Made by a program: the position numbers and the translations under genes
In this document: positions 9,825-64,000 of the stretch, in pieces
Layout of the letters: the number at the start of each line of letters is the position of its first letter
Position numbering within the stretch: the first letter of the stretch is position 1
NCBI RefSeq assembly: GCF_027887165.1
Contig: NC_077230.1
Location: forward strand, 289,206,949 to 289,270,948
DNA: 64,000 bases
Reading direction: 5' to 3'
From: Monodelphis domestica
Lineage: Eukaryota
The notes under the pieces: generated by a model
Told to the model about the DNA's origin: nothing
The model's database searches: none
Seen by the model: the letters and a program-made list of their open reading frames with translations, nothing else

Positions 9825-10020
9825 GTAAGATTCAAGATTTCATAGATAGATAGGTACCTTTGATAGTAATCAAAGTAATCAAATTTGCATACTTTTGTTT
9901 AATATACATCATATACTTAGTTTTGTGATATTCTGTGTACTTTAAAAATATTTTTATTTCAGTTTTTTCAAGTCTAACTTAGGGAAGTAATTGTCTGGAC
10001 ATATGAGCTTACTTTTCTAT

Positions 10021-13000
10021 AGTAGTAGTAGTCTCTCGGTGATCGAGAATGACTGTTGTCTTTGTGCAGTTTCATCTACGGTGTACCCTCATGTGGCTTT
10101 GGAGTCCAAAGGCTGAGGCGCAGAGTTTGTGGCACATGGGGCCTGGGACGCCAGTTGTTATGGGAGGTGCAGTTGTGGCCTGGTGTCGGCGTTCACGCGC
10201 AGCAGCAAGACGTCGACGTCGCTTATCTTCAAAGGTGGTGGCGGCATGGTTAATGTAGGTTCACCAGCTGCTTCTGACAGAGGCAGCGAGTTCTAGTTGC
10301 TTTGGTGTAATGCCAGCCCACTTCAAGTTAGACTTTAGCTGATCCTTGTATCTTTTCTTTGGTCGGCCTTGTTTCCCGAGTCCAGCTGACAGTTCACCGT
10401 AGAATACCTGTCTTGGTATTCGCTGTGGGTCCATGCGGATGACGTGTCCAGACCATCGTAGCTGGGTTTGGAGGACCAGGACTTCGATGCTGGTGGAGTT
10501 GGCTCTGTCGAGGACTTCCTGGTTGGTGATTCGGTCCTGCCATCGGATCCTCATGATTGACCGGAGGGAGCGTTGGTGGAATTGCTCCAGCTGTTTCATG
10601 TGCTTCCGGTACAGTGTCCATGTCTCGCAACCGTACAGGAGCGAGCTGAGGACCACTGCGTTGTACACTTTGAGCTTCATTGCAGTGCTTACACCACTGT
10701 GTTGGAGGACTTTGCAGCGCAGCCGCCCGAGTGCCTGGCTGGCCTTTTGGATCCTGGCATTAATCTCGTGGTCTAGGGACCCGTCGTTGGTGATGGTGCT
10801 GCCCAGGTACTTGAAAGTGTTGATGTTAGAAAGCTGCGTGCCATCGATTGTAATGCACAGCTGGTTAGTTGGCCTCCCTGGTGCAGGTTGGAACAGCAAC
10901 TCTGTTTTGCTGAGGCTGATAGTCAGGCCAAACAGTTTTGTTGTGATGGAGAACCTGTCCACAATGGTTTGGGGATGATTTTCTTGGTGGGCCATGAGAG
11001 CACAGTCATCTGCAAAGAGAGCTTCCAGTATGAGTCTCTCTGTTGTCTTTGTTTTTGCAGTCAGGTGGTGAAGGTCAAATAGTGAGCCATCCAGTCGGTA
11101 TTTGATTTAGACGCCCAGGTCTAGATCCATCACAGCATGTCGTAATACTTGGGTGAAGGATAGGTTGAATAGTACCGGAGCAAGGACACAGCCTTATTTC
11201 ACGCCATTGGAGATGTTGAAACGATCAAAAGTCTCTCCACCAGATAGGACTTCCCCTGTCATGTCGACATGAAAGAGCTGGATCAGTTTGACGAATTTTG
11301 CTGGGCAATCGAGCTTGCTGAGGATCACCCACAATGCGTCCCTGTTCGCTGTGTCGAAGGCCTTCGTCAGGTCTATGAAGACAATGTAAAGACTCAGGTT
11401 CTGCTCAAGGCATTTTTCCTGCATTTGCCTCACCATGAAGACCATGTCGATGGTGCTGCGATCTGCTCGGAAGCCACATTGTGATTCAGGCAGGTTCTGC
11501 TCTGAAACAGATGATAGGAGTCTGTTGAGTATAATACAGGCGAGGATCTTTCCAGCAGGGGAGAGTAGTGAGATGCCTCTGTAGTTGTCACAGGCTGCTC
11601 GTGAGCCTTTGTTCTTGTATAGGGCTACGATGGAGGCATCTCTGAGTTCTGGGGGAATGTCTTCCTCTTCCCATATGCTGGTCAGCACTATGTGGAATGC
11701 CTGGAGCGCCTTTCCATTTAAGACCTTGTACACCTCGGTTGGGATCCCGTCTTTACCGGGTGCCTTGCCTGCACTCATTTGTTTAATGGCTTTTTGGACT
11801 TCCTCTATTGAAGGAGGGACATCAAGTTGTTCAATGGAGTGGTTTTGGGGGATCTGGTCAAGGGCACTTTGGTTGACTGAAGAGGGTCGGTTGAGAAGCT
11901 GACTGAAGTGTTCTTTCCACCTGTTGCTGATGCCTTTTTTATCTTTTATGAGAGTGTCACCATCAAAGGATAACAAGGGAGTGGTGGTGGGTTTTAATGG
12001 CCCATAGACAGTCTTGAGGGCACTGAAAAATTGTTTGTAGTTTTTCATATCAACAAACTGCTGGATTTCTTCTGCCTTTTTTTCCCACCATTGGTCTTGC
12101 ATCTTCCTGATCTCATGCTGCACCGTGGCTTGGAGAGACTTGAATCTGTCCTTTTTAGGAGCAGAGTTTGGGTTATTTTGCCACTCCATAAAGGCTTTGT
12201 TCTTCTTGGTCAATAGGTCTTCAATAGCAGTGTTGTTCTCATCGAACCAGTCCTGGTGGTTGCGTTGTTTTGGGCCTAGGACTGCCTTTGATGTTTCCTT
12301 CACTGTGTCTCTGAACTAGTTCCATTTCTCAGTTGAGCTTCCAGTGAGTGGTCCCTTGGCAGACAGCTTGTTGTCCAGGCAGGACTGGAATGTTTGCAAA
12401 TAAGATGGATCTCTAAGATGACTCACATTGTAAAATGCGCAAACTGGGCGTGTTTTGGATGTCGAGGCGCAATGCGCATTTGAAGAGTCGCTCTAACCAA
12501 TTGGTGGTCTGTCCAGCATTCAGCTCCTCTCATTACTCTGGTGATCTGTACATCCTGGATGTCTCACTGGCGTACAATGATGTAGTCAATGAGATGCCAC
12601 TGTTTTGATTGTGGGTGCATCCATGTTGTTTTATATTTGTTTGCTATTCTGAACATAGTGTTCATGATGGTGAGTTCGAACTCTGCTGAGTTCGAAGACC
12701 TGCTGAGTAGCAGTAGGCCGTTGTTGTTCATTTTGCCCACGCCGTGTTTGCCGAGCACTCCTTTCCATCTTTCATGGTCCTGGCCAACGCGGGTGTTGAA
12801 GTCTCCCAGTAGTATCAGCTTGTCATTTGTGGGCACTGAGTGCAGGATGGCACTCAGGTCAGAGTAGAACTGCTCGATGGTCTCCTCTGTGCTGGTCAGT
12901 GTTGGGGCATATGAGCTGATGATTGTGGCATACCGGTCTTTGCTGAGAGACAAACAGATCTTCATGAGCCTCTCGCTGATGCCCACAGGCAAGTCTGGCA

Positions 13001-13330
13001 GCTGTTTGAGCAAACTGGTCTTGATGGCCAGGCCAACACCGTGGATTCTGTCTTCATTTGAGGCTCTACCTTTCCAGAAGAAGGTGTATCCAATGGTGGG
13101 TTCGCTGAGTGATCCCTCTTCTGTTAAGTGTGTTTCGCTTAAGGCTGCGATGCCAATGTTATATCGTGCCAGTTCTTTACCGATTAGAGCTGTTCTTCTC
13201 TCAAGTCTTGGGGTATTCTCTCTATCAAGTAATGTCCTGATGTTCTATGCTCCTAGTAGGAGTTTCTTTGTATTTTTTCTTTGATTTTGACCGCTTAAAG
13301 GGGATGACCTGCCAGCCACAGTGTGCTGAC
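10021..13330 (-). mobile_element. RTE-type (BovB/RTE clade) non-LTR retrotransposon, roughly 3.3 kb. It has a single ORF with AP-endonuclease and reverse transcriptase domains, disrupted by frameshifts and stops
   Basis: Minus-strand ORFs at 12564-13013 and further upstream to about 13265 show endonuclease motifs: 'WNIRTL...IAALSETH', 'LILLGDFNTRVG' and 'WMHPQSKQWHLIDYIIVR'. ORFs at 11194-12303 and 10261-10995 show reverse transcriptase motifs: 'CGFRADRSTIDMVF', 'VFIDLTKAFDT' and the C-terminal 'ITNQEVLDRA...LRWSGHVIRM'. There is no ORF1. A 3' (ACT)n tail corresponds to + strand 'agtagtagtagt' at 10021-10032. CpGs are largely retained. Confidence 0.75.
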
Positions 13331-14110
13331 CGGGTGTTTGTAGGGCAGGCAATGTTTGGGACACCTTTTCTAGTCCCCTCCCTTGATTAGGGTGAGCAGT
13401 GCTGTCCTAGAGAGGGCTGCTCAGTCGCCCAGGATGCTGCCAAATGTCCCTGCTGCCCACAGGGCCAAGCAACCACTGGTCCTTGGGCTGCCTACGTGCA
13501 GGATTGTGACTACAACTGCCAGTGGTCACCTCCACCTGTTGCGTCGTCACTCCCCCATCACCGCAGGTCTTGAAGAGGGTGGACGGGGTTAGGACAGATG
13601 AGTGTGCACAAAGATACTTGTGCATGAAAGAGATTTAAGTGGAAAAACCGATGCACAGAGACAGTCCCACTCTCTCGGTGTTGGAAGCCTGGGTCCAGTG
13701 GCATGAAAAATTGTTACGTCTGGAGACTTCCTCAGCTGCATTGGATGGCTGTATTGTCCTTTGTGCTCCAACCCGCCCTAAGCACTCCACAGTGCTTTGC
13801 TGCATTGCCCTCTCAGCCGTTGAACTTTCTTATTGGTTTCTTCCATCTGTTCAGCCAAAGCAGTCTTCACATGCTGGGTGAGCAAAGCCCTGGTTCACCA
13901 TGGGTCAACAACCCGATGGCTACCCTCACAAGGTTTGGCCGTCCTGTCGAAGCCATTGCCCAGGGTGTGGCCGCTGCCACATACTAGCAGCTACTGGGAG
14001 CCACAAGTGAGAGCTGGGTGTCAGGTGGGGGTCAGAGGCTGGAGAGCTGCCCTAGGAGGGCACGACAAGCCCTCCATACCAGAGATACTACCCCTCCCTG
14101 AGCACCCCAT
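13331..14110. other. GC-rich, roughly 0.8 kb block abutting the 5' end of the RTE element. No recognisable ORF. It may be the element's 5' region or a separate insertion
   Basis: There is an abrupt shift from AT-rich intron to GC-rich sequence, bounded by the RTE endonuclease start on one side and AT-rich intron from about 14110 on the other. Confidence 0.4.
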
Positions 14111-15924
14111 ACACCCCACTTTTCTATACATATAAACATTTAGCTTAATATTAGTATATTGAATAACCCAGGAATTTTATTTATATATTAAGGTGAAATT
14201 CATATCTACTTATCTCTTTTATTAGCTTATAAGCTTTCTGAGTAAGTCAAAATTGAATTTTATTCAGTGTACTATAAGAAAGATTCACTATTATAACCTA
14301 TTTTAAGGTTTATAAAGTGCTTTCCTCATAAAAACTCTCTGAATTATAACTAGTGCTATTGTCATTATTTAACTGAAGCTTAGAGAGATTAGGTTACTTT
14401 CATAATATAAAGCCTAATTGATCATGATAAATATTTTTTTAATTTTTAATATTTAACATATACTAATTTTTTGTTGAGTATTATTTGTATATTCATTAGG
14501 AAAGTTGATCTTTAATTTTCTTTTTTAGTGCTATCTTTACCTGGTTTAAAATTTACACCATATTTGCCCTATAAATGATATTAGGCAACTTTCCTCATAT
14601 TTACAAATAATCTATATAATATAGGAATGATTTGTTTTTGGTAAGTAAAACTTTATTTAATAGGTATGCTTTTTTAAAAAAAACTGCCATGGTATGGGGC
14701 AAGAATTGAAACTTTATTAGCGGATTCTAGAGGAGGTAGAATATCAGGAAGCAGTAGAGATGAACTCACCCAACCCCCTCGGCCATTAAACTCTACAACA
14801 CCTTCAAAAAAATCTAAGAAATATACCAGATTGAATTCTGATTGGGAAATTTAAAAAAATAATAATGAGTCATTTTTATAGCTCAGGGCAGCAAAAAATG
14901 TTGGATGAAGAGGTATGCTGACACCAGGGATGGTGGTCTAGCCAAGAATGGCCATGTGGAACATTCCTACCCAGAAAGTCTATGCATCAGAGCAATAAGA
15001 GGTTCCAAATCCATCAAAGAGGGGACCAGCCTTATGAAGGACACAGGAAGAGATGATAACTGACAATTCTGTTGTTCACTGCCTAGTTCTGGGTCACAGA
15101 TCCAGGACTAATTGAGAAAGAAACTCATGCCTAAGGGTAGCATTCTAGGATGAAGAGGTTACATGCTCTGTTCTGTGTACCAAACAAGGAGCAAAGTTCA
15201 GAAGCAAGCTATAGTTGTGTGGTTTTGAATCCAGAAAATGCGCAGCACTCCAAGTCTAAACTTCAGGCTAGAATTAAGCTTGCAATTGAATAACCAGGGT
15301 AAGAATCCAGGACTGAAGAAACGTATGCAGTTCTTTCACTCTGAATTGGCATCATTTTCTAGCTAGTTAGTTGTGGTAGAATCTGGCAGTAGTCTATTAG
15401 AACTCTAATTGGGGCAAAACCATAGCTGCTTCTACTCAGACCAAAATCCAAGTCAGGAACTTGTGGAGCTCATACTAAGAGGGCAGAAATTAGATTGTGC
15501 CCTGGATCATACCACTTTGAGAGCACTGAAAATTTGTAATTCCCTGGCACGATCTATCCCAGGGATGCTAGAATAACTCAGTACCTCAAGAAAGCAGCAA
15601 CAAGAGCAGCCAAGACATTCTCTCCAGAAGGGCACAGAGCCTAAGTCAACATAAAGACCACAGTCTGAAAGTAGGTTGGAAAAATTGTGCAAAAAAAAAT
15701 CCCACCATAAAAATCTATTAATTATGGTTATAGTGACACTCAGTATACATGAGTGGAAAACTAGGTGAAGAGGAATACATAGACAGGAGGAAGAAAGGAG
15801 GAAATTATCTTGAATAATTGGAATGCAGAAATAGAAGTCAATATAAACAATGAGGAAGGGGTGGGGAAAGGGATTGATACTTGAACCTTACACTCATCTG
15901 CAGTGATTGAAGGAAGGAAAAAAT

Positions 15925-25109: not shown

Positions 25110-28100
25110 TCAATTATACCACAGTGTATTAGTCTCTGTGTACAATGTTCTCCTGGTTCTGCTCCTCTCACTCTGCATCACTTCCTGGAGGTTGTTCCAG
25201 TCTCCATGGAACTCCTCCACTTTATTATTCCTTTTAGCACAATAGTATTCCATCACCAACATATACCACAATTTGCTCAGCCATTCCCCAATTGATGGGC
25301 ATCCCCTCGTTTTCCAGTTTTTGGCCACCACAAAGAGTGCAGCTATGAATATTTTTGTACAAGTCTTTTTGTCCATTATCTCTTTGGGGTACAGACCCAG
25401 CAGTGCTATGGCTGGATCAAAGGGTAGATATTCTTTTGTCGCCCTTTGGGCATAGTTCCAAATTGCCCTCCAGAATGGTTGGATCAGTTCACAACTCCAC
25501 CAGCAATGAATTAATGTCCCTACTTTGCCACATCCCCTCCAGCATTCATTACTTTCCTTTGCTGTTATGTTAGCCAATCTGCTAGGTGTGAGGTGATACC
25601 TCAGAGTTGTTTTAATTTGCATCTCTCTGATTATAAGAGATTTAGAACACTTCTTCATGTGCTTATTAATAGTTTTGATTTCTTTATCTGAGAACTGCCT
25701 ATCCATGACCCTTGCCCATTTATCAATTGGAGAATGGCTTGATTTTTTGTACAATTGATTTAGCTCTTTATAAATATGAGTAATTAAACCTTTGTCAGAG
25801 GTTTCTATGAAGATTTTTTCCCAATTTGTTGTTTCCCTTCTGATTTTAGTTACATTGGTTTTGTTTGTACAAAAGCTTTTTAGTTTGATGTAGTCAAAAT
25901 TATTTATTTTACATTTTGTGATTCTTTCTATGTCTTGCTTGGTTTTAAAGCCTTTCCCCTCCCAAAGGTCTGATATGTATACTATTCTGTGTTTACCCAA
26001 TTTACTTATGGTTTCCTTCTTTATGTTTAAGTCACTCACCCATTTTGAATTTATCTTGGTGTAGGGTGTGAGGTGTTGATCTATTCCTACTCTCTCCCAC
26101 ACTGTCTTCCAATTTTCCCAGCAGTTTTTATCGAATAGTGTATTTTTGTCCCAAAAGCTGGGATCTTTGGGTTTATCGTATACTGTCTTGCTGAGGTCTC
26201 TTTCCCCCAGTCTATTCCACTGATCTTCCTTTCTGTTTCTTAGCCAGTACCAAATTGTTTTGATGACTGCTGCTTTGTAATATAGTTTAATGTCAGGGAC
26301 TGCAAGGCCCCCATCATATGTGTTTTTTTTCATTATTTCCCTGGATATCCTTGATCTTTTGTTCTTCCAAATGAACTTTGTTATGGTTTTTTCTAAATCA
26401 GTGAAGAAGTATTTTGGGAGTTCAATGGGTATGGCACTAAATAGATAAATAAGTTTGGGTAGGATGGTCATTTTTATTATATTGGCTCGTCCTATCCATG
26501 AGCAGTTAATGTTTTTCCAATTGCTCAAGTCTAGTTTTATTTGTGTGGAGAGTGTTTTGTAGTTGTGTTCATATAGTTCCTGTGTTTGTCTCGGGAGGTA
26601 GATTCCTAGGTATTTTATTTTGTCTAAGGTGATTTTGAATGGGATTTCTCTTTCTAGTTCTTGCTGCTGAGCTGTGTTGGGGTTATATAGAAAAGCTGAT
26701 GACTTATGTGGGTTTATTTTGTATCCTGCAACTTTGCTAAAGTTGTTGATTATTTCAATTAGCTTTTTGGTTGAATCTCTAGGATTCTTTAAGTAGACCA
26801 TCATGTCATCTGCAAAGAGTGATAACTTGGTCTCCTCCTTGCCTATTTTGATGCCTTCAATTTCTTTTTCTTCTCTAATTGCTACTGCTAGTGTTTCTAG
26901 TACAATGTCAAATAGTAGAGGTGATAATGGGCATCCTTGTTTCACTCCTGATCTTATTGGGAATGCATCTAGTTTATCCCCATTGCAGATGATATTAGCT
27001 GATGGTTTTAGATATATACTGTTTATTATTTTTAGGAATGACCCTTCTATTCCTATGCTTTCTAGTGTTTTTAATAGGAATGGGTGTATTATTTTATCAA
27101 ATGCTTTTTCTGCGTCTATTGAGATAATCATGTGGTTCTTGCTGGTTTGCTTGTTGATGTGGTCAATTATGTGGATGGTTTTCCTAATGTTGAACCAGCC
27201 CTGCATCTCTGGTATAAATCCTACTTGATCATGGTGAATGATCCTTCTGATCACTTGCTGGAGTCTTTTTGCTAGTACCCTATTTAAGATTTTTGCATCT
27301 ATATTCATTAGGGAGATTGGTCTATAGTTTTCTTTCTCTGTTTTTGACCTGCCTGGTTTTGGAATCAGTACCATGTTTGTGTCGTAAAAGGAGTTTGGTA
27401 GAACTCCCTCTTTGCTTATTATGTCAAATAGTTTGTATAGTATTGGGATTAACTGTTCTCTGAATGTTTGATAGAATTCACTGGTGAATCCATCAGGCCC
27501 TGGGGATTTTTTCTTAGGAAGTTCTTTGATGGCTTGTTGGATTTCATTTTCTGATATGGGATTATTTAAGAATTCTATTTCCTCTTCTGTTAGTCTAGGC
27601 AGTTTGTATTTTTGTATATATTCATCCATATCTCCTAAATTGGTGTATTTATTGCCATATAATTGGGCAAAGTAATTTCTAATGATTGCCTTAATTTCCT
27701 CTTCATCGGAGGTGCTGTCCCCCTTTTCATCTTTAATGCTGTTAATTTGCTTTTCTTCCTTCCTTTTTTTAATTAGATTGACCAATACTTTGTCTATTTT
27801 GTTTGTTTTTTCAAAGTACCAGCTTCTTGTCTTATTTATTAAATCAATAGTTCTATCACTTTCGATTTTATTAATTTCTCCCTTAATTTTTAGGATTTCT
27901 AGTTTGGTTTTCTGCTGGGGGTTTTTAATTTGATCGCTTTTGAGTTTTTTCATTTGCATTTCCAATTGATTGATCTCTGCTCTCCCTAGTTTGTTAATAT
28001 AAGCATTCAGGGATATGAATTTACCTCTGATTACTGCTTTGGCTGCATCCCAAAAGGTTTGAAAGGATGTCTCGCCATTGTCATTTTCCTCGATGAAATT

Positions 28101-28910
28101 ATTAATTGTTTCTATGATTTCTTCTTTAACTAAACGGTTTTGGAGTATCATATTGTTTAATTTCCAATTGGTTTTAGATTTGGTTTTCCATGTACCATTA
28201 CTAATCATTATTTTTATTGCCTTGTGATCTGAGAAGGCTGCATTCATTATTTCTGCTTTTCTGCATTTGTGTGCTATGTTTCTGTGACCTAATGTATGGT
28301 CAATTTTTGTGAATGTGCCATGTGGTGCTGAGAAGAAGGTGTATTCCTTTTTTTCCCTATTTATTTTTCTCCATATGTCTATTAATTCTAATTTTTCTAA
28401 GATTTCATTCACTTCTTTTACCTCTTTCTTATTTATTTTTTGATTTGATTTATCTAAATTTGATAATGGTTGGTTTAAGTCTCCCACTAATATGGTTTTA
28501 CTGTCTATTTCTTCCTTCAATTCTCCTAGTTTCTCCATTAGAAATTTGGGTGCTATATTATTTGGTGCATACATGTTGATTAATGATATTTCCTCATTGT
28601 CTAAAGTCCCTTTTAACAAAATATAATTACCTTCCCTATCCCTTTTGATCAAGTCTATTTTTGCTTTGGCTTTATCAGATATCATGATTACCACTCCTGC
28701 CTTCTTTCTGTCAGTTGAGGCCCAGAAGGTCTTACTCCATCCTTTAATTCTGACCTTGTGGGTGTCAACCTGCCTCATGTGTGTTTCTTGAAGACAACAT
28801 ATGGTAGGGTTTTGGATTCTAATCCATTCTCCTATTCGTCTACATTTTATGGGTGAGTTCATCCCATTCACGTTCAAAGTTATGATTGTCAGTTGTGGAC
28901 TCCCTGGCAT
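25110..28910 (-). CDS. L1 ORF2 protein (endonuclease, reverse transcriptase and Cys-rich domain), 1266 aa, apparently intact
   Basis: Endonuclease N-terminus '[23 protein letters not shown]'; reverse transcriptase motifs '[10 protein letters not shown]' and '[10 protein letters not shown]'; C-terminal '[25 protein letters not shown]'. No internal stops. Confidence 0.9.
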
Positions 28911-29313
28911 TTTGATAGCCTTCCCTAATTCTAACCTTTTCTTCTTCGGCTCTACCTTTTAGTCCAGTGATTTACTTTGAATCAGTCCCCCTTGTCCCCT
29001 CCCTTGATGTTTCCCTTTTTAGTCCCTCCCTTTTTGTTCCCTCCCCCTCCCCCTTCTCTTTCCCTCCCTTTTTGTTTTCCCTCTCCCCCTCCCCCCCTTG
29101 GTTTCCCCTTCTCCCTACCCTTGTTGGGTAAGATAGAATTCAAGATCCCAATGGATCTGGATGTTTTTACCTCTCAGAGTTGATTTCCCTGAGATTGAGG
29201 TTTAAGTAAAAAACCCTCTCTTCCTCTCCTTCTTATAGGAGTTTTCTTCCCCTCCCCTTCCCATGTGAATCTTTGTGTGAGAAAGATTATTCTATTTGGT
29301 CTTTCTTTACCCC

Positions 29314-30408
29314 CTATATATACATTACATTTTCCCCACATGTTAGTATACATAGATTGATATAAATGTTGTCCTTATAGAAGAGAGTTTGAGTAAAAGA
29401 AGAAGATAACATTTTTCCCCTTTCCTTAATATTTACCTTTTCAGGTATTCCTTGCTCTTTGTTTTTCGGTATCAAACTTTCCACAGAGCTCTGGTCTTTT
29501 CTTTGCAAAAAGTTGGAAGTCTCTTCTATTTTGTTGAATGCCCATACTTTCCCTTGGAAGTATATAGTCAGTTTTGCTGGGTTTCTGATTCTTGGTTGAA
29601 GACCCAGCTCTCTTGCCTTTCTGAAGATCATGTTCCATGCCTTACGATCATTCAGAGTACAACTTGCAAGGTCTTGTGTGACCCTGATTGGCATTCCTTT
29701 ATATCTAAATTGTCTTTTTCTGGCTTCCTGTAGGATTTTTTCTTTTGTTTGATAGCTTTGGAATTTGGCAATTACATTCCTGGGAGTTGTCTTTTGGGGG
29801 TTTAGTGTAGAAGGTGTTCTGTGAGCTCTGTCAGTGGCTGTATTGCCCCCTTGTTCTAGAATCTCTGGGCAATTTTCTTTGATTATATCTTGTATCACCA
29901 TGTCGAGTTTGGTGTTTATTTCTGGCTTTTCTGGAAGTCCAATTATTCTTAAATTATCTCTTCTCCCTCTATTTTCCAGATCTGTCACCTTGTCAGTGAG
30001 ATATTTTATGTTCTCTTCTAATTTCTTGGTATTTTGGCTTTGCTTTATTAATTCTTGCTCTTTTACACGATCGTTGTCTTCCAGCTGCCTGATTCTGGCC
30101 TTTAAAGCCTGGTTTTCCTTTTCAGTTTCATCACACTGGTTTTGTAGATGCGTGAATTTCTTTTGCATTATTTCCCACTTTTCCTCCCAGAAGGCTTCCA
30201 TCTTTTTGGTCATTTCTGATTCAAATTCTTCATGGGTTTGTGGAGAGTTTCCATTTCCTTTGGAAGGTTTTGGAGCATTTTCTTGTATATCATCTTCTAT
30301 CTCCTCTGTATTTTGTATTTTGGCTCCATAGAATGTGTCCAAAGTCGCCCCTTTCTTCTTATTTTTCTTGGTATTTTGCGGCTTCTGTGCTTCTGTGGAG
30401 TTTGCCAT
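29314..30408 (-). CDS. L1 ORF1 protein. The likely start is MANSTEAQK at 30408. A 2-bp indel near the C-terminus shifts the frame, and the canonical ending continues in another frame to about 29441
   Basis: Coiled-coil and RRM-like segments are present: 'RRDNLRIIGLPE', 'ENCPEILEQ' and 'RVTQDLAS...KAWN.IFRKARELGLQPRI..PAKL'. After 'KVWAFNKIEE' the frame reads 'TSNFLQRKDQ...', whereas the alternate frame at 29441-29638 gives the canonical 'FQLFAKKRPELCGKFDTEKQRARNT*'. Confidence 0.7.
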   Translation of the reverse strand: MANSTEAQKPQNTKKNKKKGATLDTFYGAKIQNTEEIEDDIQENAPKPSKGNGNSPQTHEEFESEMTKKMEAFWEEKWEIMQKKFTHLQNQCDETEKENQALKARIRQLEDNDRVKEQELIKQSQNTKKLEENIKYLTDKVTDLENRGRRDNLRIIGLPEKPEINTKLDMVIQDIIKENCPEILEQGGNTATDRAHRTPSTLNPQKTTPRNVIAKFQSYQTKEKILQEARKRQFRYKGMPIRVTQDLASCTLNDRKAWNMIFRKARELGLQPRIRNPAKLTIYFQGKVWAFNKIEETSNFLQRKDQSSVESLIPKNKEQGIPEKVNIKERGKMLSSSFTQTLFYKDNIYINLCILTCGENVMYI

Positions 30409-30665
30409 CTCTGAATGTGGAGGATTAGCTTTTCTTATCTCTGTCTGATGTTCAGAGGCTTTAGTCCTGGGCAGATTGTCGGTTCTATGAGCTTTCCCTG
30501 GGTTAAATTGAGTATGCCTTCCGGCAATGACTTTCACTGGAACTGGAATGGAAGGGTCGGACCAGGGGGGCCACATTCTCCCGCGGCTCTATCTGCTTCC
30601 CTGCAGGGGTCGGGTTGCTTTCTGGAAGTTGCCTTCAGAATAGCTGGCCGTGAGGCTGTTTTGTT

Positions 30666-32060: not shown

Positions 32061-35000
32061 AGGAACCAAAGCTTGACAGGCCTCTGAGAGGGAGGGAACA
32101 GATAAATAGGAGCACTACTTCCTCTCTCAGGCAAAACTGCCTCAGAGAAAGTGAAATCGGATCTATGTCCAGAGCTGAAGGGTAAGAGGAAATCCCCTTC
32201 AATCTCTAGTTTCTGTTTTCTTTTCTGGATGAATATTATCTTGAACCCCTTAGTACACTTTGAAGAATGAGATGTTTAGTTCTTCTATAACTTATAAGAT
32301 CTATTTATCAGTTGGAGATTCAGGATTGGTAGATAAGGGAACAGGGAAGATAGGAAATCCCTATTCTATTTTCAACCTAAATTCCCTTTAGGGGTTGAGA
32401 GCTCAGGTCTGGGGACCTGGGTCCCTGAAGACCACTATGGAGTCAGACTGATGTAATTTCCTGATATAGAGATATAGTTTTTTAAAGATATGGATTGAAA
32501 ATCTTCTGGATGGATAGTCTCTTGCCTTCCCCAAATGGAAAAAGTCTCTATCCACCTCTTTTGATGAAAGATGGCTATCTGGGTCTCTTCAGATCAATTG
32601 AGGGATTATAGCAGGCTAAGCTCTGCAAAGTTGCTCTTTTCCCTCTCAGTTCAGAAGGGACAAGAACTCCTTTGCAACTGTTTCCCTACTTTTCTTGGCT
32701 GGAGATTCCAGTCCCATCCCCATCATCAGCCAAAGTTGCATTTCCTTCCTGCATGAGGTTTCCTTGCAAAATCAAGTCTTTGCAGTGTATTCTGTATCTC
32801 TCATCCACACCATCACCCACAAATTCACCACTTTTGTGTTTAAAAATTCTGAAATCCGCTAGAGACTGTACCAAGAGATCTGACAAAGCTCCAAGAGGGG
32901 AGACTGACAGCCCCAAAACCAAAACAAAATGAGAGGAGCAAGAGCACAGCCAAATACGGGGAGCAAAGAAGGGGTAAACTCAAGCAAACAACAGAAAAAG
33001 AAGAAAGAGACAGCTTCTGCACAGGTAAGGAGCAAAGAGCGAATGAAACAGAGGGGGAGGACCCAGCAGAGAAAAAATCAGAAATCCCAGCGAATTGGAT
33101 ACAGGCTTTGGAAGAACTCAAAATGCAATTCAAAACACAATTAAGAGAGGCTGAAGACAATTGGGAAAAGAACTTAAAAACTGAGATAAGTCATCTGGAA
33201 ACAGAAAATAGTGTCTTGAAAGCAAAAATCAACCAGCTGGAAAATGAGGCAAAGGAGATGAAAGATGAGGCAAAGCAGATGAAAGATGAGGTGAAGAAGA
33301 TGAAAGATAACCTCCAAAGAAAACCGACCAAAAGGAAAAGGACGACCAAAAAACTAAGGATGAAATCCAGTCTTTAAGAACCAGAATACAACAACTTGAA
33401 TCGAGCGACCTCACAAGGCAGCAAGACACTATAAAAGAAAACCAAAAGAATGAAAAAATTGAGGAAAATATGAAGCATCTCATTCACAAAACAGAGGATT
33501 TAGAAAATCATTCAAGGAGAGACAATTTAAGAATTATTGGCCTACCAGAAGACCATGACAAAAGAAAAAGCCTGGACATTATATTACAGGAAATTATTAA
33601 AGAAAACTGCCCCGAAATCCTTGAACAAGAGGGAAAAGTAGAGATTGATAGAATCCACAGATCACCTCCTGTACTTAATCCCCAACTGACAACACCCAGC
33701 AATGTTATAGCCAAATTCAAGAACTATAAGACCAAAGAAAAGATATTACAAGCTGCCAAGAAGAAGTCATTCAGATACCAAGGAACCACAGTGAGGATAA
33801 CTCAGGATCTGGCTGCATCCACACTGAAAAAAAGAAAGGCATGGAAGACGATATTCCGGAAAGCAAGGAAACTAGGTCTACAACCAAGAATCAACTACCC
33901 AGCAAAACTGACTATATTCTTACAGGGGAAAGTATGGTCATTCAACAAAATAGAAGAATTCCAAGAATTCGTAAAGAAAAGACCAGACCTGAACAGAAAA
34001 TTTGATGTCCAAGCACAGAACTCAAGAGAATCATCAAAAGGTAATTAAAAAAGAAGGGAAAAAAGAAAAACAAAAAAAATTTTTTAAGAGACTCAATAAG
34101 TTAAAATGATATGTATCCCTATAAGAAAAGAGGTCATTGGTAACTCTTAAAAACTGTTGTTATTAGCTGGGCAGCAAAAAGAAGTATACTTAGAGGGAAC
34201 AGCAACAAACTGTATAGGATGAAAGGACAAGACATAAATAGGTATATAGATATATGCATGCAAAAATACATACGCATGAGTATGCATATATATATATAAC
34301 TAGAGCTTAAAAATAGGTTAATATTAAAAGAAATGGGAAAAGAAACAAATGGAGGTAAATTTATATGTCATAAAGAAGCTCATGGTGGGAGGGGGGAGAA
34401 CATCAATACACTGAAAGGGTAAAGAGGTCAGAGATAGGAAATACTCAACTTTTACGTGCTTTGAAAGTGACTCAAAGAGGGAAAAACAATCCAATCCATT
34501 GGGGGCAGAGAATAGATTTGCACCCTATAGGGGAGTAGAAGGGTAACAAATGGTCTGGTGGGGAGGGAAGCAGTACAAGAGAGGGAGGGAGCGGGGGGTT
34601 AATTTTAGAAAGACTACAGGGAAAATAAGGGGGGGGATAAATAGGGAGGGGGGTAGAAAGGGAAGTAAAAAAAGAGTGGGAACAAGGGGGAATGTTCAAA
34701 AGCAAACATTGGTGTAGAAGGAAATAGTGAAAGAAGAAAAGGCAGGTAAAGGAGCAGAAATAAAAATGCTGGGAAATACACAGCTAGTAATCATAACTCT
34801 GAATGTGAATGGAATGAACTCACCCATAAAACGCAAGTGAATAGCAGAGTGGATTAGAGTCCAAAACCCTACCATATGCTGTCTACAAGGAACACATATG
34901 AGAAAGGTAGATACACATAGGGTGAAAGTAAGAGGGTGGAGCCAAATCTATTGGGCATCAACTGACAAAAAAAAGGAAAAAATGCAAAGAAAGGAGGACT

Positions 35001-37190
35001 TGCAGTCCCAGATCTCAAACTATACTATAAAGTAGTGGTTATCAAAATAATTTGGTACTGGCTAAGAGACAGAAAGGAGGATCAGTGGAATAGACTTGGA
35101 GTAAATGATCTCAGCAAGACAGTTTATGACAAACCCAAAGACCCCAGCTTTTGGGACAAAAATCTATTATTTGATAAAAACTGCTGGGAAACAAAGAGAT
35201 AATGGACAAAAAGACTTGTACAAACATATTCATAGCTGTGCTCTTTGTGGTGGCCAAAAACTGGAAAACGAGGGGATGCCCATCAATTGGGGAATGGCTG
35301 AGCAAATTGTGGTATATGTTGGTGATGGAATACTATTGTGCTAAAAGGAATAATAAAGTGGAGGAGTTCCATGGAGACTGGAACAACCTCCAGGAAGTGA
35401 TGCAGAGCGAGAGGAGCAGAACCAGGAGAACATTGTACACAGAGACTAATACACTGTGGTATAATCGAACGTAATGGACGTCTCCATTAATGATGGTGTA
35501 ATGTCCCTGAACAATTTGCAGGGATCCAGGAGAAAAAAACACTATTCATAAGCAAAGGATAAACTATGGGAGTGGAAACACTGAGGAAAAGCAACTGCCT
35601 GAATACAGCGGTTGAGGGGACATGACAGAGGAGAGACTCTAAATGAATACTCTAATGCAAATATTATCAACAAAGCAATGGGTTCAAATCAAGAAAACAT
35701 GTAATGCCCAGTGGATTCACGCGTCGGCTATGGGGGGTGGGGGGGAGGAAAAGAAAATGATCTATGTCTTTAACGAATAATGCTTGGAAATGATCAAATA
35801 AAATATATTAAAAAAAAACTGCTGGGAAAATTGGAAGACAGTGTGGGAGAGATTAGGTTTGGATCAACACCTCACATCCTACACCAAGATAAATTCAGAA
35901 TGGGTGAATGACTTGAACATAAAGAAGGAAACTATAAGTAAATTAGGTGAACACAGAATAGTATACCTGTTAGACCTTTGGGAAGGGAAAGATTTTAAAA
36001 CCAAGCAAGACTTAGAAAGAGTCACAAAATGTAAAATAAATAATTTTGACTACATCAAATTAAAAAGGTTTTGTACAAACAAAGCCAATGTAACTAGAAT
36101 CAGAAGGGTAGCAACAAATTGGGAAACAATCTTCATAAAAACCTCTGACAAAGGTTTAATTACTCAAATTTACAAAGAGCTAAATCAATTGTACAAAAAA
36201 TCAAGCCATTCTCCAATTGATAAATGGGCAAGGGACACGAACAGGCAGTTCTCAGCCAAAGAAATCAAAACTATTAATAAGCACATGAAAAAGTGCTCTA
36301 CATCTCTTATAGTCAGAGAGATGCAAATCAAAACAACTCTGAGGTATCACCTCACACCTAGCAGATTGGCTAACATAACAGCTATGGAAAGTAATGAATG
36401 CTGGAGGAGATGTGGCAAAGTAGGGACATTAATTCATTGCTGGTGGAGTTGTGAATTGATCCAACCATTCTGGAGGGCAATTTGGAACTATGACCAAAGG
36501 GCAATAAAAGACTGTCTGCCCTTTGATCCAGCCATAGCACTACTTGGTTTGTACCCCAAAGAGATAAGAAGGAAAAAGACTTGTACAAGAATATTCATAG
36601 CTGCACTCTTTGTGGTGGCCAAAAATTGGAAAATGAGGGGATGCCCTTCAATTGGGGAATAGCTGAACAAATTGTGGTATATGTTGGTGATGGAATACTA
36701 TTGTGCTAAAAGGAATAATAAAGTGGAGGAATTCCATGGAGACTGGAACAACCTCCAGGAAGTGATGCAGAGCGAGAGGAGCAGAACCAGGAGAACATTG
36801 TACACAGAGACTGATACACTGTGGTACAATCAAAGGTAATGGACTTCTCCATTAGTGGCAATGCAATGTCCCTGAACAATCTGCAGGGATCTAAAAAACA
36901 CTATCCACAAGCAGAAGATAAACTGTGGGAGTAAAAATACCTATGAAAAGCAACCGCCTGACTACAAGGTTGGAGGGGATATAACTGAGGAGAGACTCTA
37001 AGTGAACATTCTAATGCAAATACCAACAACATGGAAGTGGGTTTGAATCAAGAACACATGTGATACCCAGTGGAATTGCGCGTGGGCTATGGGAGAGGTG
37101 GTGGGAGGGAGGGGAGGGAAGAAAAGAAAATGATCTTTGTTTCCAATGAATAATGTTTGGAAATGACCAAATAAAAATTAAAAAAAAAAA
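32060..37190 (+). mobile_element. L1 element, sense to PARP4, with a degenerate ORF1, a large internal deletion in ORF2, and a nested L1 insertion
   Basis: ORF1 pieces at 32929-33144, 33108-33377 and 33470-34048 include 'RRDNLRIIGLPEDHDKRKSLDIILQEIIKENCPEILEQEG...'. The ORF2 endonuclease start '[14 protein letters not shown]' is at about 34800. At about 34985 the sequence jumps to the ORF2 region '...GGLAVPDLKLYYK'. The ORF2 C-terminal ORF at 35841-36662 is followed by a 3'UTR and poly(A) at about 37175-37190. The 5' boundary near 32060 is uncertain. Confidence 0.75.
35186..35818 (+). mobile_element. Nested 5'-truncated L1 insertion (ORF2 C-terminus 90 aa plus 3'UTR plus poly(A)) inside the host L1 ORF2, with a target-site duplication
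   Basis: The left flank '...aaaaactgctgggaaa|caaagag' and the right flank 'ttaaaaaaaaa|ctgctgggaaaattgg' share a 13-15 bp direct repeat. The host L1 ORF2 reading '...[17 protein letters not shown]' resumes exactly after the insertion. The inserted ORF at 35202-35474 is '[51 protein letters not shown]...'. Confidence 0.8.
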
Positions 37191-38884: not shown

Positions 38885-38914
38885 CTCTCTCTCTCTCCCT
38901 CTCTCTCCCTCCCT

Positions 38915-38990
<76 letters not shown>
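38885..38990. repeat. (CT)n / (CCCT)n microsatellite
   Basis: Read directly from the sequence. It generates spurious ORFs such as 'MRERERERER' and 'LSLSLSLS'. Confidence 0.95.
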
Positions 38991-38994
<4 letters not shown>

Positions 38995-39619
38995 GTGTCA
39001 CCTAGCTACCCCTATCAGGGCAAATTTCTTAAGACTATAAGCTCCAAAAGACGTGCTGACCTTCAATGGGAGAGGGAATTTTTTAATCTGAGAATATCAT
39101 GTAGTATAACATCACAGTTACAGTACTATCCCAGCTCTATCAAAATAGTTATATTAAAGTATTGTTAATTAACATAATCACACTGTCAGTGCCTCAATTC
39201 TACAGATGCTACTCCTATTTTTTTCATAGTAAGTAAAAATACAAAATGTATTTTATTCTAAAAGCAAAACATGATAATTATCACCACTTCCAGTTTTCTA
39301 CTTTGTGTAGAATACGTGGATAATCTAAGGAAAATGCAGGATGCTCTCACCTCCCTCTGTGATCTTTATATATGACAAACATGCATGTTATTAATCAGTG
39401 AAGGTGAACAAAAAACGAATGTAAATTTTCCTAGTATTTGTATTGGATAGGAATAACATTAAAAGAATATACTTAACATTCTTTTTTTTAAAACAATTTT
39501 TTGGGAGGACTTCATTTTCTTTTATCTTCATAGTTATTCTCAGTATCCTTCTTCCTCCCCCTCTCAGAGAGCCTTACCATATAAAAATAATATTTTTTAA
39601 AGAATAAATAAAAGAGAAT

Positions 39620-42480: not shown

Positions 42481-42913
42481 AATCAATAGAAAAGAAATGC
42501 TTATTAACTTGAAAATTAAAAGCAAAAAGCAAGAAAGGAAGAAGCAGCTGCTAAGAGAGGTAGAAGCAATTGCTTCTGGAACCATGACTATCAGTCCTGT
42601 GTGCAATTCCCACAGGAGAGGCTTGGCTGCTATCCTGTATTATTGTGTACTAAACTTATCCATATTGTACAAAGGATGACTAGATTATAATAATAACAGT
42701 TTAAAATCTTTAGGAAATCTTTAGTATCTTAATCATTTAGTGATATTAAAAAGATTGATTTATATATTATTCACCTTGTGTTTTTGATGCCTGTTGTCTT
42801 CATTTAAATTACTTTGGAAATCACCTCCTCAAATGTTCTTTAGTTGTTAAACTGCTTTAAAAACTAAACTCTTGTATTTTGTTCTGTTTTCCCTTTCTTA
42901 CATGAAATACCAG

Positions 42914-44350: not shown

Positions 44351-44440
44351 GTAAGGTGATGTGTTTTAGAAACAAATTTAGATAAGATCTGCATAAAGTA
44401 CATGAAAGTTTTCTTTACTGACTTTATCTTTGCCTTTCAG

Positions 44441-62916: not shown

Positions 62917-62999
<83 letters not shown>

Positions 63000-63020
63000 G
63001 GATAGATAAACAGATAGATA
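62917..63020. repeat. (GATA)n microsatellite
   Basis: About 24 units read directly. It causes the 'YLSIYLSI' ORF artefacts. Confidence 0.95.
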
Positions 63021-64000
63021 ATCTCTCCTAGATTGCAATTTATAATAGAAAGTATACTAGTTCTGGAGTCAAAGGTACAGTAATATCTATGTACCTTGTC
63101 TAATGCTTGGCTCAAAGGGCCAATTATATGGCTTTCTCTTCTCATTTGAGGAGATTGATTCCTCAATGCTCTGCATGTGTGTGAGGGGCACCGGAGAGCT
63201 ATTGAGAAGAAAGATCTGGGCTCTTCTGATTTTCAACCTCAATTCAGAAGAAACATTATTCCAATCTCACTTCAGGTAAATCAAAGGAAAGACTAGGGAA
63301 AAGGTGACATGTTGAACTAGAGACTTCAAGGAATTTCTTCTTGGGTGAGCTGTAGGGCTCTCTCTTTTGGTTGAGTTGACTTGTCCTGCTACCAAAGGGA
63401 GAACTTATTCATTCTCCGAATTGTCTGCTATATATTCTGTTATGTATACTTTCTCTGAATTCTGTTTTTCTAATGACTTGGATAAATGGATTTACTTGTT
63501 GTTTGCTATGTGTGATCATTATGGAACTGGCATTTGAGGATGTCAACTGGGTTTTTTGCAAGTTTCAAGTTTGACCCCTGAGAAGTCACCCCAAGGGAAG
63601 TCCCAGACTCATTGGTTTCAGACTGAAAAGACCTTGGAGTGTTTGGGGACCCTGGTTAGGTGGGACTAGTGGACATAGTCAAATGTTAAATACCCTTTTT
63701 TGTCTTAGTAGTTTCTCCCATTATACTAAAGCCCTTTCCCAGGAAGCCCAGCTCTTGGTTTAACCCTTTCCTTTTGTATTCATTGTAGCAGACCACTCCC
63801 TGATTTCCCAGCTGCTGGCTGCAGCCTCTTTCCCAAGCCTGCTTGCAACCTGTCAATGTATGTTTGTAGTTCCCCAAAGGGTATATAGGACCCCCAGGTT
63901 CTGTTGTTTTTTGGAGAATCCTCCCAGAGATACTGTCCCCAGAGCCCCAGGGTTCCAACTCTATGGCACCTGGCTCTGTGATAGCAGCCTATTACTGGAC

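What the first reader, a model, noticed from the sequence alone, without database searches (positions are those of the whole stretch)
10021..14110. Relatively young RTE-type LINE (AP endonuclease plus RT, no ORF1) with retained CpGs, plus an unexplained 0.8 kb GC-rich block at its 5' end
Long ORF fragments of 369, 244 and 149 aa with the RTE hallmarks are broken by only a few frameshifts, and CpG dinucleotides are not depleted. Together these suggest a recent insertion. RTE/BovB elements are notable for horizontal transfer among vertebrates. The adjoining 13331-14110 block is GC-rich with no ORF and is bounded sharply by AT-rich intron. It could be an unusually long 5'UTR or promoter region of this family, or an independent element.
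Basis: partly seen in the sequence, partly recalled or inferred. Interest (0 to 1): 0.5.

Follow-up and report, generated by a model that had tools for sequence, protein, structure and literature searches.

The report
LINE 5' leader hides conserved RNA
The "unexplained GC-rich block" is the 5' leader of a dead RTE-type jumping gene in an opossum intron, and it holds a roughly 280-base knotted RNA fold, conserved from crustaceans to mammals, that appears to fix where translation of the element's AUG-less gene starts.

Summary
A full-length, inactivated non-LTR retrotransposon lies on the minus strand at 10022-14118, flanked by a perfect 11-bp target-site duplication. The host is Monodelphis (the neighbouring L1 ORF2 is 96% identical to opossum proteins). 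The element has one ORF (AP endonuclease, RT, degenerate C-terminal C2H2-like motif), no ORF1, a 53-nt 3'UTR and an (ACT)n tail, so it is RTE-type in architecture. The sub-clade could not be tested.

The GC-rich block is not a separate element. A 4.4-kb metagenome contig aligns over the whole 4.1 kb in one 80% HSP. Of 80 relatives sampled only by their endonuclease, 70 carry the same sequence just upstream.

The core, window 13567-13290, is non-coding. It forms 14 covariation-supported helices, three of them pseudoknots (95.8% of cells paired against 33-41% in slid controls). No Rfam family matches.

The reading frame is phase-locked to the 3' strand of the last pseudoknot in 46 of 53 relatives, and 45 of those 53 have no AUG there. 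Landmarks upstream of that point show no phase.

Best reading: an IRES-like leader that directs AUG-independent initiation. This step is inferred, not shown. Rivals are a protein-binding motif or a ribozyme.

The parts
10011..10021 (.). Target-site duplication, 3'-flank copy (ACTTTTCTATA on the + strand)
   Evidence: Exact 11/11 match to 14119-14129, read directly from the sequence. It abuts the end of homology to L002.
10022..10033 (-). 3' tail, short tandem repeat (ACT)n / (CTA)n
   Evidence: The same CTACTACTACTAC tail is present in relative L002. There is no poly(A).
10022..10074 (-). 3'UTR, 53 nt including the stop codon and tail, with a short CUCG(A)...CGAG hairpin next to the tail
   Evidence: Alignment A2. 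The hairpin motif is shared only with close relatives.
10075..13289 (-). Single conceptual ORF of about 1073 codons: one frameshift near 12440 and in-frame stops at 13247, 12566, 12318, 11196, 11109 and 10263. The first in-frame codon after the RNA domain is CAA at 13289-13287.
   Evidence: It is 71-81% identical to intact 993-1064-aa ORFs P0001-P0004.
12567..13217 (-). AP endonuclease domain (Exo_endo_phos). The conserved WNVRTL motif starts at 13247, where W has mutated to TAG.
   Evidence: Pfam PF03372, residues 25-241, E=5e-7. Coordinates.
10792..11607 (-). Reverse transcriptase domain (RVT_1), with the FADD motif at 11016
   Evidence: Pfam PF00078, residues 563-834, E=2e-28. Coordinates. 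The closest solved relatives are L1 ORF2p and R2.
10075..10143 (-). Degenerate C-terminal C2H2-like motif. It is CX2CX12HX3H in intact relatives; here the first Cys is replaced by Gly.
   Evidence: The Pfam zf-C2H2 hit is sub-threshold, E=0.021 in P0090.
13290..13567 (-). Conserved structured RNA domain of the 5'UTR: 14 helices including 3 pseudoknots. The window copy keeps 65 of 67 consensus pairs.
   Evidence: Alignment A5 and pair counts. Cross-validation. Mapping to the window. nhmmer hit at 13571-13284, E=9e-62, the only hit in the window.
13358..13377 (-). Hairpin P-j with the near-invariant loop UAGAAAAGGUG
   Evidence: (helix 12, 98.1% paired, 4 of 5 pairs with double changes).
13290..13334 (-). 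Hairpin P-k (13334-13308). Its loop ACUGU (13322-13318; consensus ACCGC) pairs with GCGGU at 13294-13290 to form pseudoknot PK3, across a pyrimidine-rich 10-13-nt linker. The ORF frame is locked to this 3' strand.
   Evidence: (PK3: 95.4% paired, weak covariation).
13568..14118 (-). Upstream part of the 5'UTR (about 550 nt, GC 0.54). It is conserved only among closer relatives. It is presumed to be a promoter or leader region; no function has been shown.
   Evidence: 83.5% identical to L002. blastn hits reach the 5' end only in L001-L006, L014 and a few others. The 5' end is defined by the TSD and by the start of L002 homology.
14119..14129 (.). Target-site duplication, 5'-flank copy
   Evidence: Exact match to 10011-10021.

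Best explanation
SHOWN. Window 10022-14118 (minus strand) is one full-length but inactivated copy of a single-ORF, RTE-type non-LTR retrotransposon. It inserted into AT-rich opossum DNA by target-primed reverse transcription, leaving an 11-bp TSD.

The GC-rich block is the element's own roughly 830-nt 5'UTR. Its 3' third (13567-13290) is a non-coding RNA domain conserved across the whole family, in metagenomes and in lancelet, catfish, mantis shrimp and opossum genomes. On the sense strand it forms a long irregular hairpin followed by a multi-hairpin core tied together by three pseudoknots.

The reading frame of the endonuclease-RT ORF is fixed relative to the 3' strand (GCGGU) of the last pseudoknot and to nothing upstream of it. 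Most family members have no AUG between that point and the first conserved residues.

INFERRED. The domain works as an IRES-like translation-initiation element. It captures a ribosome and places the codon immediately 3' of pseudoknot PK3 (usually CGA; CAA in this copy) in the decoding site, so that the ORF is translated without an AUG and probably without cap-dependent scanning.

The hairpin P-k, its loop-to-downstream pairing, the variable pyrimidine-rich linker and the A-rich unstructured start of the ORF resemble the PKI module (anticodon-codon mimic plus variable loop region) of dicistrovirus intergenic IRESs. This would suit an ORF1-less element that is often co-transcribed inside host introns.
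For: Element and 5'UTR:
- TSD and tail.
- One 4135-bp HSP at 80.4% to L002 covers 14116-10020.
- Close relatives carry roughly 700-800 nt upstream of the ORF with no ORF1.
- Of 80 loci sampled only by EN-domain homology, 59 match the window's 5'UTR by blastn and 70 by an nhmmer profile. The lancelet, catfish and mantis-shrimp genomic copies also match.
- The domain is the best-conserved part of the element: 90.4% identical to L002, against 81.2% for the ORF.

Not coding:
- There are 3-4 stops per 100 codons in all three frames.
- Gene callers read it in different frames in different relatives.

Structure (unless stated):
- 67 pairs; 95.8% of cells paired, against 77.5% in shuffles and 33-41% in slid controls.
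- 58 of 67 pairs show double-sided changes (699 cells).
- Covariation score 0.600, against 0.246 in shuffles (0 of 500 reached it) and at most 0.12 when slid.
- Helices found in one random half are 97-98% paired in the held-out half.
- Sense strand 95.8% paired against 86.0% antisense, with 11% G-U cells.

Frame lock:
- The PK3-to-W distance is a multiple of 3 in 46 of 53 relatives over a 27-90 nt range (binomial p about 1e-15).
- There is no phase preference for any landmark at or upstream of column 400.
- 48 of 53 have no in-frame stop there, against 29-30 of 53 in the other frames. Only 8 of 53 have an in-frame ATG.
- Some relatives have in-frame stops inside the linker. There is no conserved near-cognate start codon.
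- Three independent genome copies show the same pattern.
- The three domain-less relatives with an intact N-terminus all have an in-frame ATG.
- The linker is 74% pyrimidine, and the first 30 nt of the ORF are 51% A.
Against: - No experiment or ribosome data exist. The function is inferred from anatomy alone.
- PK3, on which the IGR-IRES analogy rests, is supported mainly by conserved complementarity: only 6 cells show double changes.
- No Rfam IRES model matches, even at E<=10. The RNA is about 100 nt larger than IGR IRESs and its helix order differs.
- Single-sequence folding energy is no better than shuffles (z=-0.35).
- Metagenome contigs may be consensus-like or defective copies, so missing AUGs could partly reflect decay.
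- RTE families commonly give rise to non-autonomous elements that keep the LINE 5' end (PMC3747384). That would fit a non-translational cis role.
- The sequences are phylogenetically related, so shuffle statistics overstate independence.
Confidence: 0.55

Rival explanations
1. The structured domain is a cis-acting binding or assembly site for the element's own protein. It would act like the pseudoknotted 5' protein-binding RNA of R2 that controls second-strand cleavage, or serve as an RNA stability or export element. Translation would begin near it for unrelated reasons.
For: - The fold is strongly conserved and sense-strand specific.
- R2 provides a precedent for a pseudoknotted 5' RNA bound by the RT (the reference list of PMC8501958 cites Christensen et al. 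2006; the rest is my own knowledge).
- RTE-derived non-autonomous elements keep the LINE 5' end (PMC3747384 table).
Against: - It does not explain why the coding phase is locked to the PK3 3' strand while no AUG or near-cognate codon is conserved there.
- It does not explain why domain-less relatives have AUGs.
- The two roles are not mutually exclusive.
Confidence: 0.2
2. The domain is, or contains, a self-cleaving ribozyme that processes read-through host transcripts and thereby promotes expression. HDV-like ribozymes of R2 and RTE elements and twister variants in the Perere-3 (RTE) 5'UTR do this.
For: - The fold is complex and multi-pseudoknotted, and sits in a LINE 5'UTR inside an intron.
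- Published precedents exist in RTE-clade elements (PMC8501958; Ruminski et al. 2011, cited there).
Against: - No match to any Rfam ribozyme family at E<=10 on five relatives or on the window copy.
- The helix order does not fit the HDV-like nested double pseudoknot (my own comparison).
- Full-length genomic copies keep about 550 nt upstream of the domain, bounded by a TSD. The retrotransposed RNA was therefore not cleaved at the domain.
- Cleavage alone would not impose a codon phase.
Confidence: 0.12
3. The GC-rich block is a separate sequence: an independent element, a remnant ORF1, or a host CpG island fused by chance to a 5'-truncated LINE.
For: There is a sharp composition change at 14118 and no long ORF.
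Against: - Homology to L002 is continuous across the supposed junction at 13330.
- The TSD brackets the block and the LINE together.
- The block is attached in 70 of 80 independently sampled relatives and in three animal genomes.
- Stops occur in all frames.
- The window holds no second copy.
Confidence: 0.02

Closest known systems
RTE-clade LINEs (C. elegans RTE-1, Bov-B, Schistosoma Perere-3; opossum RTE-1/2/3_MD in Repbase)
   Same: - A single ORF with an N-terminal AP endonuclease and an RT.
- No ORF1, a very short 3'UTR, and a short tandem-repeat tail instead of poly(A).
- Patchy cross-phylum distribution.
- The opossum is already known to host several RTE families, with suspected horizontal transfer (Gentles et al. 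2007, as cited).
   Different: - About 4.1 kb rather than about 3.2 kb, because of the roughly 830-nt 5'UTR.
- The tail is (ACT)n, not the TAAGTATC repeats given for marsupial RTE (PMC4408412).
- Intact relatives end in a C2H2-like motif, which I do not recall for RTE-1 or Bov-B (my own knowledge).
- Sub-clade (RTE, RTEX or Proto2) not determined.
Dicistrovirus intergenic-region (type 6) IRES, especially its PKI module
   Same: - Three pseudoknots.
- A hairpin whose loop pairs with about 5 nt lying immediately 5' of the first decoded codon.
- A variable-length loop region between the two strands.
- A non-AUG first codon whose phase is set by the pseudoknot.
- A-rich, unstructured downstream sequence.
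   Different: - No sequence or covariance-model similarity.
- About 280-330 nt against 150-190 nt, with an extra 5' hairpin domain and a different helix order.
- It sits in a cellular retrotransposon, not an RNA virus.
- Factor-independent ribosome binding is untested. A 2013 review raised IGR-like IRESs in non-LTR elements only as a hypothetical (PMC3894237).
HDV-like ribozymes at the 5' end of R2, RTE and Baggins elements, and twister-variant ribozymes in the Perere-3 5'UTR
   Same: - A structured, pseudoknotted RNA in a LINE 5'UTR.
- These RNAs are reported to promote expression of an ORF that may lack an AUG.
- They are relevant to elements co-transcribed with host RNA.
   Different: - No Rfam ribozyme match.
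- The domain is internal, about 550 nt from the element's 5' end, and is retained in retrotransposed copies.
- It is much larger, and cleavage is untested.
R2 5'UTR pseudoknot / 5' protein-binding motif
   Same: A conserved pseudoknotted RNA of about 300 nt at the start of the ORF of a single-ORF LINE.
   Different: A different clade (restriction-like endonuclease, site-specific insertion) with no sequence relation. The frame-lock feature has not been described there, to my knowledge.

Membership tests
RTE-type LINE (broad sense) | Single ORF with an N-terminal AP endonuclease followed by a reverse transcriptase | tested here: met
   Pfam Exo_endo_phos at residues 25-241 and RVT_1 at 563-834 on the conceptual protein. 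The same order holds in intact relatives P0001 and P0090.
RTE-type LINE (broad sense) | No ORF1 upstream of the EN-RT ORF | tested here: met
   Intact relatives L001-L005 have only 36-64-aa chance ORFs upstream. The upstream region has stops in all frames across 61 relatives.
RTE-type LINE (broad sense) | Very short 3'UTR ending in short tandem repeats rather than poly(A) | tested here: met
   53-nt 3'UTR with an (ACT)n tail, shared with L002.
RTE-type LINE (broad sense) | RT domain groups with labelled RTE references rather than CR1/L2 in a phylogeny (for example RTclass1) | not testable with these tools
   No clade-labelled LINE proteins were reachable. Database names were generic, PDB holds only L1 and R2, and a motif search of papers found nothing.
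Bov-B / marsupial RTE as described for the Tasmanian devil and opossum | 3' end made of TAAGTATC tandem repeats (PMC4408412, Fig. 1 legend) | tested here: not met
   The tail is (ACT)n.
Canonical RTE-1/Bov-B protein | No Cys/His motif after the RT (my own recollection of Malik & Eickbush 1998) | tested here: not met
   Intact relatives end in CX2CX12HX3H. The Pfam zf-C2H2 hit is only sub-threshold. The window copy has lost the first Cys.
CR1 / L2 LINEs | Two ORFs (ORF1 plus EN-RT ORF2) | tested here: not met
   No ORF1.
Dicistrovirus IGR IRES (Rfam IRES_Cripavirus and relatives) | Match to the family covariance model | tested here: not met
   No IRES family hit at E<=10 on L001-L005 or on window 9900-14300.
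Dicistrovirus IGR IRES (works-like test) | Pseudoknot directly 5' of a non-AUG first codon that sets the reading frame | tested here: met
   Frame lock in 46 of 53 relatives to the PK3 3' strand only; 45 of 53 lack an ATG; in-frame stops occur in the linker. PK3 pairing is 95.4% but with weak covariation.
Dicistrovirus IGR IRES (works-like test) | Factor-independent 80S binding and initiation without Met-tRNAi | not testable with these tools
   This needs ribosome-binding, toeprint and reporter experiments.
Self-cleaving ribozymes known in LINE 5'UTRs (HDV-like, twister, hammerhead) | Match to an Rfam ribozyme model or its core topology | tested here: not met
   No hits at E<=10. The helix order differs from the HDV-like fold (inference).

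The most novel reading that the evidence does not exclude
A previously undescribed class of cellular IRES. It would be a roughly 280-nt triple-pseudoknot RNA carried by a cross-phylum family of RTE-type retrotransposons (crustaceans, lancelets, fish, frogs, a marsupial). [quoted passage not shown] That would make it a retrotransposon counterpart, and possibly an evolutionary relative or source, of the factorless dicistrovirus IGR IRES.
Probability: 0.3. Interest if true: 0.9.

Novelty: new variant of a known kind. Interest (0 to 1): 0.72.

Why it matters
How single-ORF LINEs that lack ORF1, and often lack an AUG, get translated is an open question. A 2013 review (PMC3894237) noted that if IGR-type IRESs existed in non-LTR elements, ORF definitions and bioinformatic analyses would have to be revisited.

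This work gives a concrete, alignable RNA with precise predictions: 14 helices, 3 pseudoknots, a defined first codon, and intact exemplars from several animal genomes. It can go straight into reporter, toeprinting and structure-probing experiments.

If confirmed:
- It would be a new RNA family for Rfam.
- It would explain why this family keeps a long GC-rich leader.
- It would give a cap- and AUG-independent expression module that works in hosts from arthropods to vertebrates. That is relevant to the horizontal spread of RTE elements and useful as a tool.

The LINE copy itself is ordinary: a dead intronic insertion of a repeat class already catalogued in the opossum.

Tried and rejected
- Other copies in the window: blastn of the element against the masked window, and nhmmer, found none.
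- Rfam at gathering threshold on the whole window, and at E<=10 on the element and five relatives: only noise, with no ribozyme, IRES or tRNA-like family. ARAGORN found no tRNA.
- Single-sequence folding: z=-0.35 for the sense strand and -1.62 for the antisense strand, so uninformative.
- Coding or ORF1 hypothesis for the block: rejected. There are stops in all frames, and different relatives are read in different frames.
- Splice-acceptor reading of the pyrimidine tract plus AG before GCGGU: rejected, because about half of the relatives have UG rather than AG.
- Conserved near-cognate start codon in the linker: none.
- HDV-like topology: the order of strands does not fit (inference).
- Clade labelling: generic database names; a peptide-motif search of papers gave 0 hits; Gentles et al. 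2007 is not held in the library; PDB holds only L1 and R2.
- Host identification from a putative exon (42872-44359, N-terminal part): no homologues. An exact lookup of the L1 ORF2 found nothing on record. The question was solved by a homology search with the L1 ORF2.
- Viral contigs scanned with the P-j loop motif: two chance matches inside long ORFs of AT-rich contigs, with no domain and no EN.
- 3'UTR hairpin regex across the loci: found only in the closest relatives, and not pursued.
- No covariance model was built. Alignment A5 exceeds the 400-column limit, and the MAFFT-based evidence was already decisive.
Full report
1. WHAT IS IN THE WINDOW

The region 10021-14110 stands out as a block of about 50% GC in DNA of 25-30% GC. 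All coding signal is on the minus strand. They carry Exo_endo_phos and RVT_1 domains.

Reading the minus strand through its lesions gives one conceptual ORF of about 1073 codons. It has one frameshift near 12440 and six in-frame stops. Pfam places the endonuclease at residues 25-241 and the RT at 563-834, E=2e-28.

The element is bounded by a perfect 11-bp direct repeat, ACTTTTCTATA, at 10011-10021 and 14119-14129. The insertion is therefore 10022-14118, or 4097 bp. It ends in an (ACT)n tail after a 53-nt 3'UTR.

CpG o/e is 0.47 in the ORF and 0.27-0.29 in the 5' leader. The flanks have 0.10 and intact relatives have 0.57-0.77. CpGs are retained relative to the host but clearly eroded. There is no second copy in the window.

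2. HOST

The window also holds a full-length L1 with both ORFs open. Its ORF2 is 96% identical to Monodelphis domestica proteins and 75% identical to Sarcophilus. The window is therefore opossum DNA or DNA from a very close relative.

The opossum is already known to carry several RTE families (RTE-1/2/3_MD). It also carries non-autonomous partners built from RTE 5' and 3' ends (PMC3747384 table; PMC4408412).

3. RELATIVES, AND WHETHER THE GC-RICH BLOCK BELONGS

A protein search with the conceptual ORF found intact single ORFs of 993-1064 aa at 71-81% identity. They sit on contigs of 4.0-4.5 kb from freshwater and marine metagenomes and from Logan assemblies. At 46-65% identity there are proteins from Branchiostoma, a catfish, a frog and a mantis shrimp.

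The contigs carry roughly 700-800 nt upstream of the ORF and no ORF1. One of them, L002, aligns to the window in a single 4135-bp HSP at 80.4% identity. That HSP runs from 14116 to 10020, across the supposed junction at 13330, and ends exactly at the TSD-defined termini.

For an unbiased sample, I scanned JGI metagenome contigs with an alignment of the endonuclease domain only. This gave 80 loci at 50-72% amino-acid identity. Of these, 59 match the window's 5'UTR by blastn just upstream of the endonuclease. Seventy match a profile of its core by nhmmer. The lancelet, catfish and mantis-shrimp genomic copies match too. Most of the ten non-matching loci simply lack enough upstream sequence.

The block is therefore the family's own 5'UTR. 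The 'independent element' alternative is refuted.

4. THE CONSERVED CORE IS A STRUCTURED RNA, NOT CODING

Conservation is concentrated in window 13575-13290, where column conservation equals that of the WNVRTL codons. Against L002 this segment is 90.4% identical, compared with 81.2% for the ORF.

It is not coding. Sixty-one relatives have 3-4 stops per 100 codons in every frame. Gene callers that happened to extend into it read it in different frames in different relatives.

A MAFFT alignment of 53 non-redundant cores (A5) shows compensatory changes throughout. I derived 14 helices with 67 pairs, listed here by A5 column:
- A long irregular hairpin made of P-a to P-e, columns 94-186.
- P-f 189-193/259-263, enclosing hairpin P-g.
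- P-h 267-273/293-299.
- P-i 300-303/313-316.
- P-j 319-323/334-339, with the near-invariant loop UAGAAAAGGUG.
- P-k 373-382/391-400.
- Pseudoknot PK1: the P-g loop, 230-235, paired with 356-361.
- Pseudoknot PK2: 290-292 paired with 353-355.
- Pseudoknot PK3: the P-k loop ACCGC, 385-389, paired with GCGGU at 415-419.

The pair counts are as follows:
- 95.8% of cells form standard pairs, against 77.5% in shuffles and 33-41% when partners are slid.
- 58 of 67 pairs show double-sided changes, in 699 cells.
- The covariation score is 0.600, against 0.246 in shuffles (0 of 500 reached it) and at most 0.12 when slid.

Because the structure was derived from the same alignment, I cross-validated it. 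Helices detected in a random half are 97-98% paired in the held-out half, with 240-250 double-change cells against 14-41 for slid controls.

The fold belongs to the sense strand: 95.8% paired against 86.0% on the antisense strand, with 11% G-U cells. The window copy keeps 65 of 67 pairs.

PK3 is the weakest element. It is 95.4% paired, but both strands are nearly invariant and only 6 cells show double changes.

No Rfam family matches, even at E<=10. The literature searches I could run found no description of such an RNA.

5. LINK TO THE START OF THE ORF

The distance from the last nucleotide of GCGGU to the W codon of WNVRTL varies from 27 to 90 nt. It is a multiple of three in 46 of 53 relatives (binomial p about 1e-15). 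Landmarks at or upstream of the 3' end of P-k show no phase preference, about one third in each phase. Coding constraint therefore begins within the stretch that contains GCGGU.

Several other observations point the same way:
- In that interval 48 of 53 relatives have no in-frame stop, against 29-30 of 53 in the other frames. Only 8 of 53 have an in-frame ATG.
- The 10-13-nt linker before GCGGU is 74% pyrimidine and has no conserved near-cognate codon. In some relatives it holds an in-frame stop two codons before the CGA.
- The first 30 nt after GCGGU are 51% A.
- The codon after GCGGU is CGA in 35 of 53 relatives, and CAA in the window.
- Three genome copies that were not used to build the model behave identically: distances of 39, 36 and 39 nt, with no ATG and no stop.
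- The three relatives that lack the domain but have an intact N-terminus all carry an in-frame ATG.

6. INTERPRETATION

Shown: the GC-rich block is the 5'UTR of a dead, full-length RTE-type LINE. It contains a deeply conserved, pseudoknotted, sense-strand RNA domain. The ORF's reading frame is set at the 3' edge of that domain in a family that largely lacks an initiating AUG.

Inferred (about 0.5): the domain is an IRES-like element that directs AUG-independent initiation at the codon following PK3. The P-k hairpin, PK3, the variable linker and the first codon mirror the PKI module of dicistrovirus IGR IRESs. The resemblance is functional and architectural only. It is not membership: no covariance-model match, a larger size and a different helix order.

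The rivals are:
- A protein-binding or RNP-assembly motif like the R2 5' RNA (0.2).
- A processing ribozyme like the HDV-like and twister elements of other LINE 5'UTRs (0.12). This is weakened by the 550 nt of retained upstream sequence and by the lack of any ribozyme match.

7. FAMILY ASSIGNMENT

The architecture is RTE-type: a single EN-RT ORF, no ORF1, a short 3'UTR and a tandem-repeat tail. The Bov-B label is not supported, because the tail type differs. Intact relatives also carry a C-terminal CX2CX12HX3H motif, which I do not recall for RTE-1 or Bov-B.

Whether the family is RTE proper, RTEX or Proto2 could not be tested, because no clade-labelled references were available.

DNA identity of 72-80% over the whole element, between an opossum copy and contigs from aquatic metagenomes, is compatible with the horizontal transfer already proposed for opossum RTEs. 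It cannot be dated or given a direction here.

8. VERDICT

The LINE copy itself is ordinary and its class is already catalogued. The 'unexplained block' is explained as the 5'UTR. Inside it is an apparently undescribed structured RNA with a specific, testable role in translation initiation.

Noticed in passing
window 25110-30576 (minus strand): A full-length L1 with both reading frames open: ORF1 at 29314..30576 (420 aa) and ORF2 at 25110..28910 (1266 aa). ORF2 is 96% identical to Monodelphis domestica proteins, so this may be a retrotransposition-competent L1-1_MD-type copy. It is also what identified the host.
   Followed up: partly
window 33470-36662 (plus strand): Further L1 pieces in the opposite orientation: an ORF1-like 192-aa ORF at 33470..34048, and ORF2 C-terminal fragments at 35202..35474 and 35841..36662.
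   Followed up: no
window 42872-44359 (plus strand): A 495-aa open frame with long proline-rich PPPPLPGS-type repeats (FH1- or formin-like). It may be a large coding exon of the host gene. Its N-terminal 136 aa found no homologue in the protein database.
   Followed up: partly
window 13568-14118 (minus strand); L001-L006, L014: The upstream 550 nt of the 5'UTR is conserved at 70-84% only among the closer relatives and diverges in the rest of the family. This fits a lineage-specific promoter or leader region. There are too few sequences to test for structure.
   Followed up: partly
L019, L025, L061 (metagenome loci): A minority of family members lack the structured RNA domain and instead have an ordinary in-frame ATG 12-35 codons before WNVRTL. 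They could serve as natural controls for the function of the domain.
   Followed up: partly
L052:1597-1941: One relative carries a 29-nt internal duplication (GGGCGACTGAGCAGCCCTATTTAGAAGCT) of the 5' arm of helix P-h inside the domain (seen in alignment A4).
   Followed up: no
L002 (ENA freshwater metagenome ERZ936936), L005 (Tara Oceans scaffold), L001 (Logan SRR21398042): Whole-element DNA identity of 72-80% between an opossum copy and contigs from aquatic metagenomes of unknown source organism. This is suggestive of horizontal transfer, but the donor organisms are unidentified.
   Followed up: no
window 38900-39000 and 62950-63050: Simple-sequence tracts: a (CT)n-type run that translates as SLSLSL, and (ATCT/TATC)n-type repeats that translate as IYLSIYLS.
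   Followed up: no
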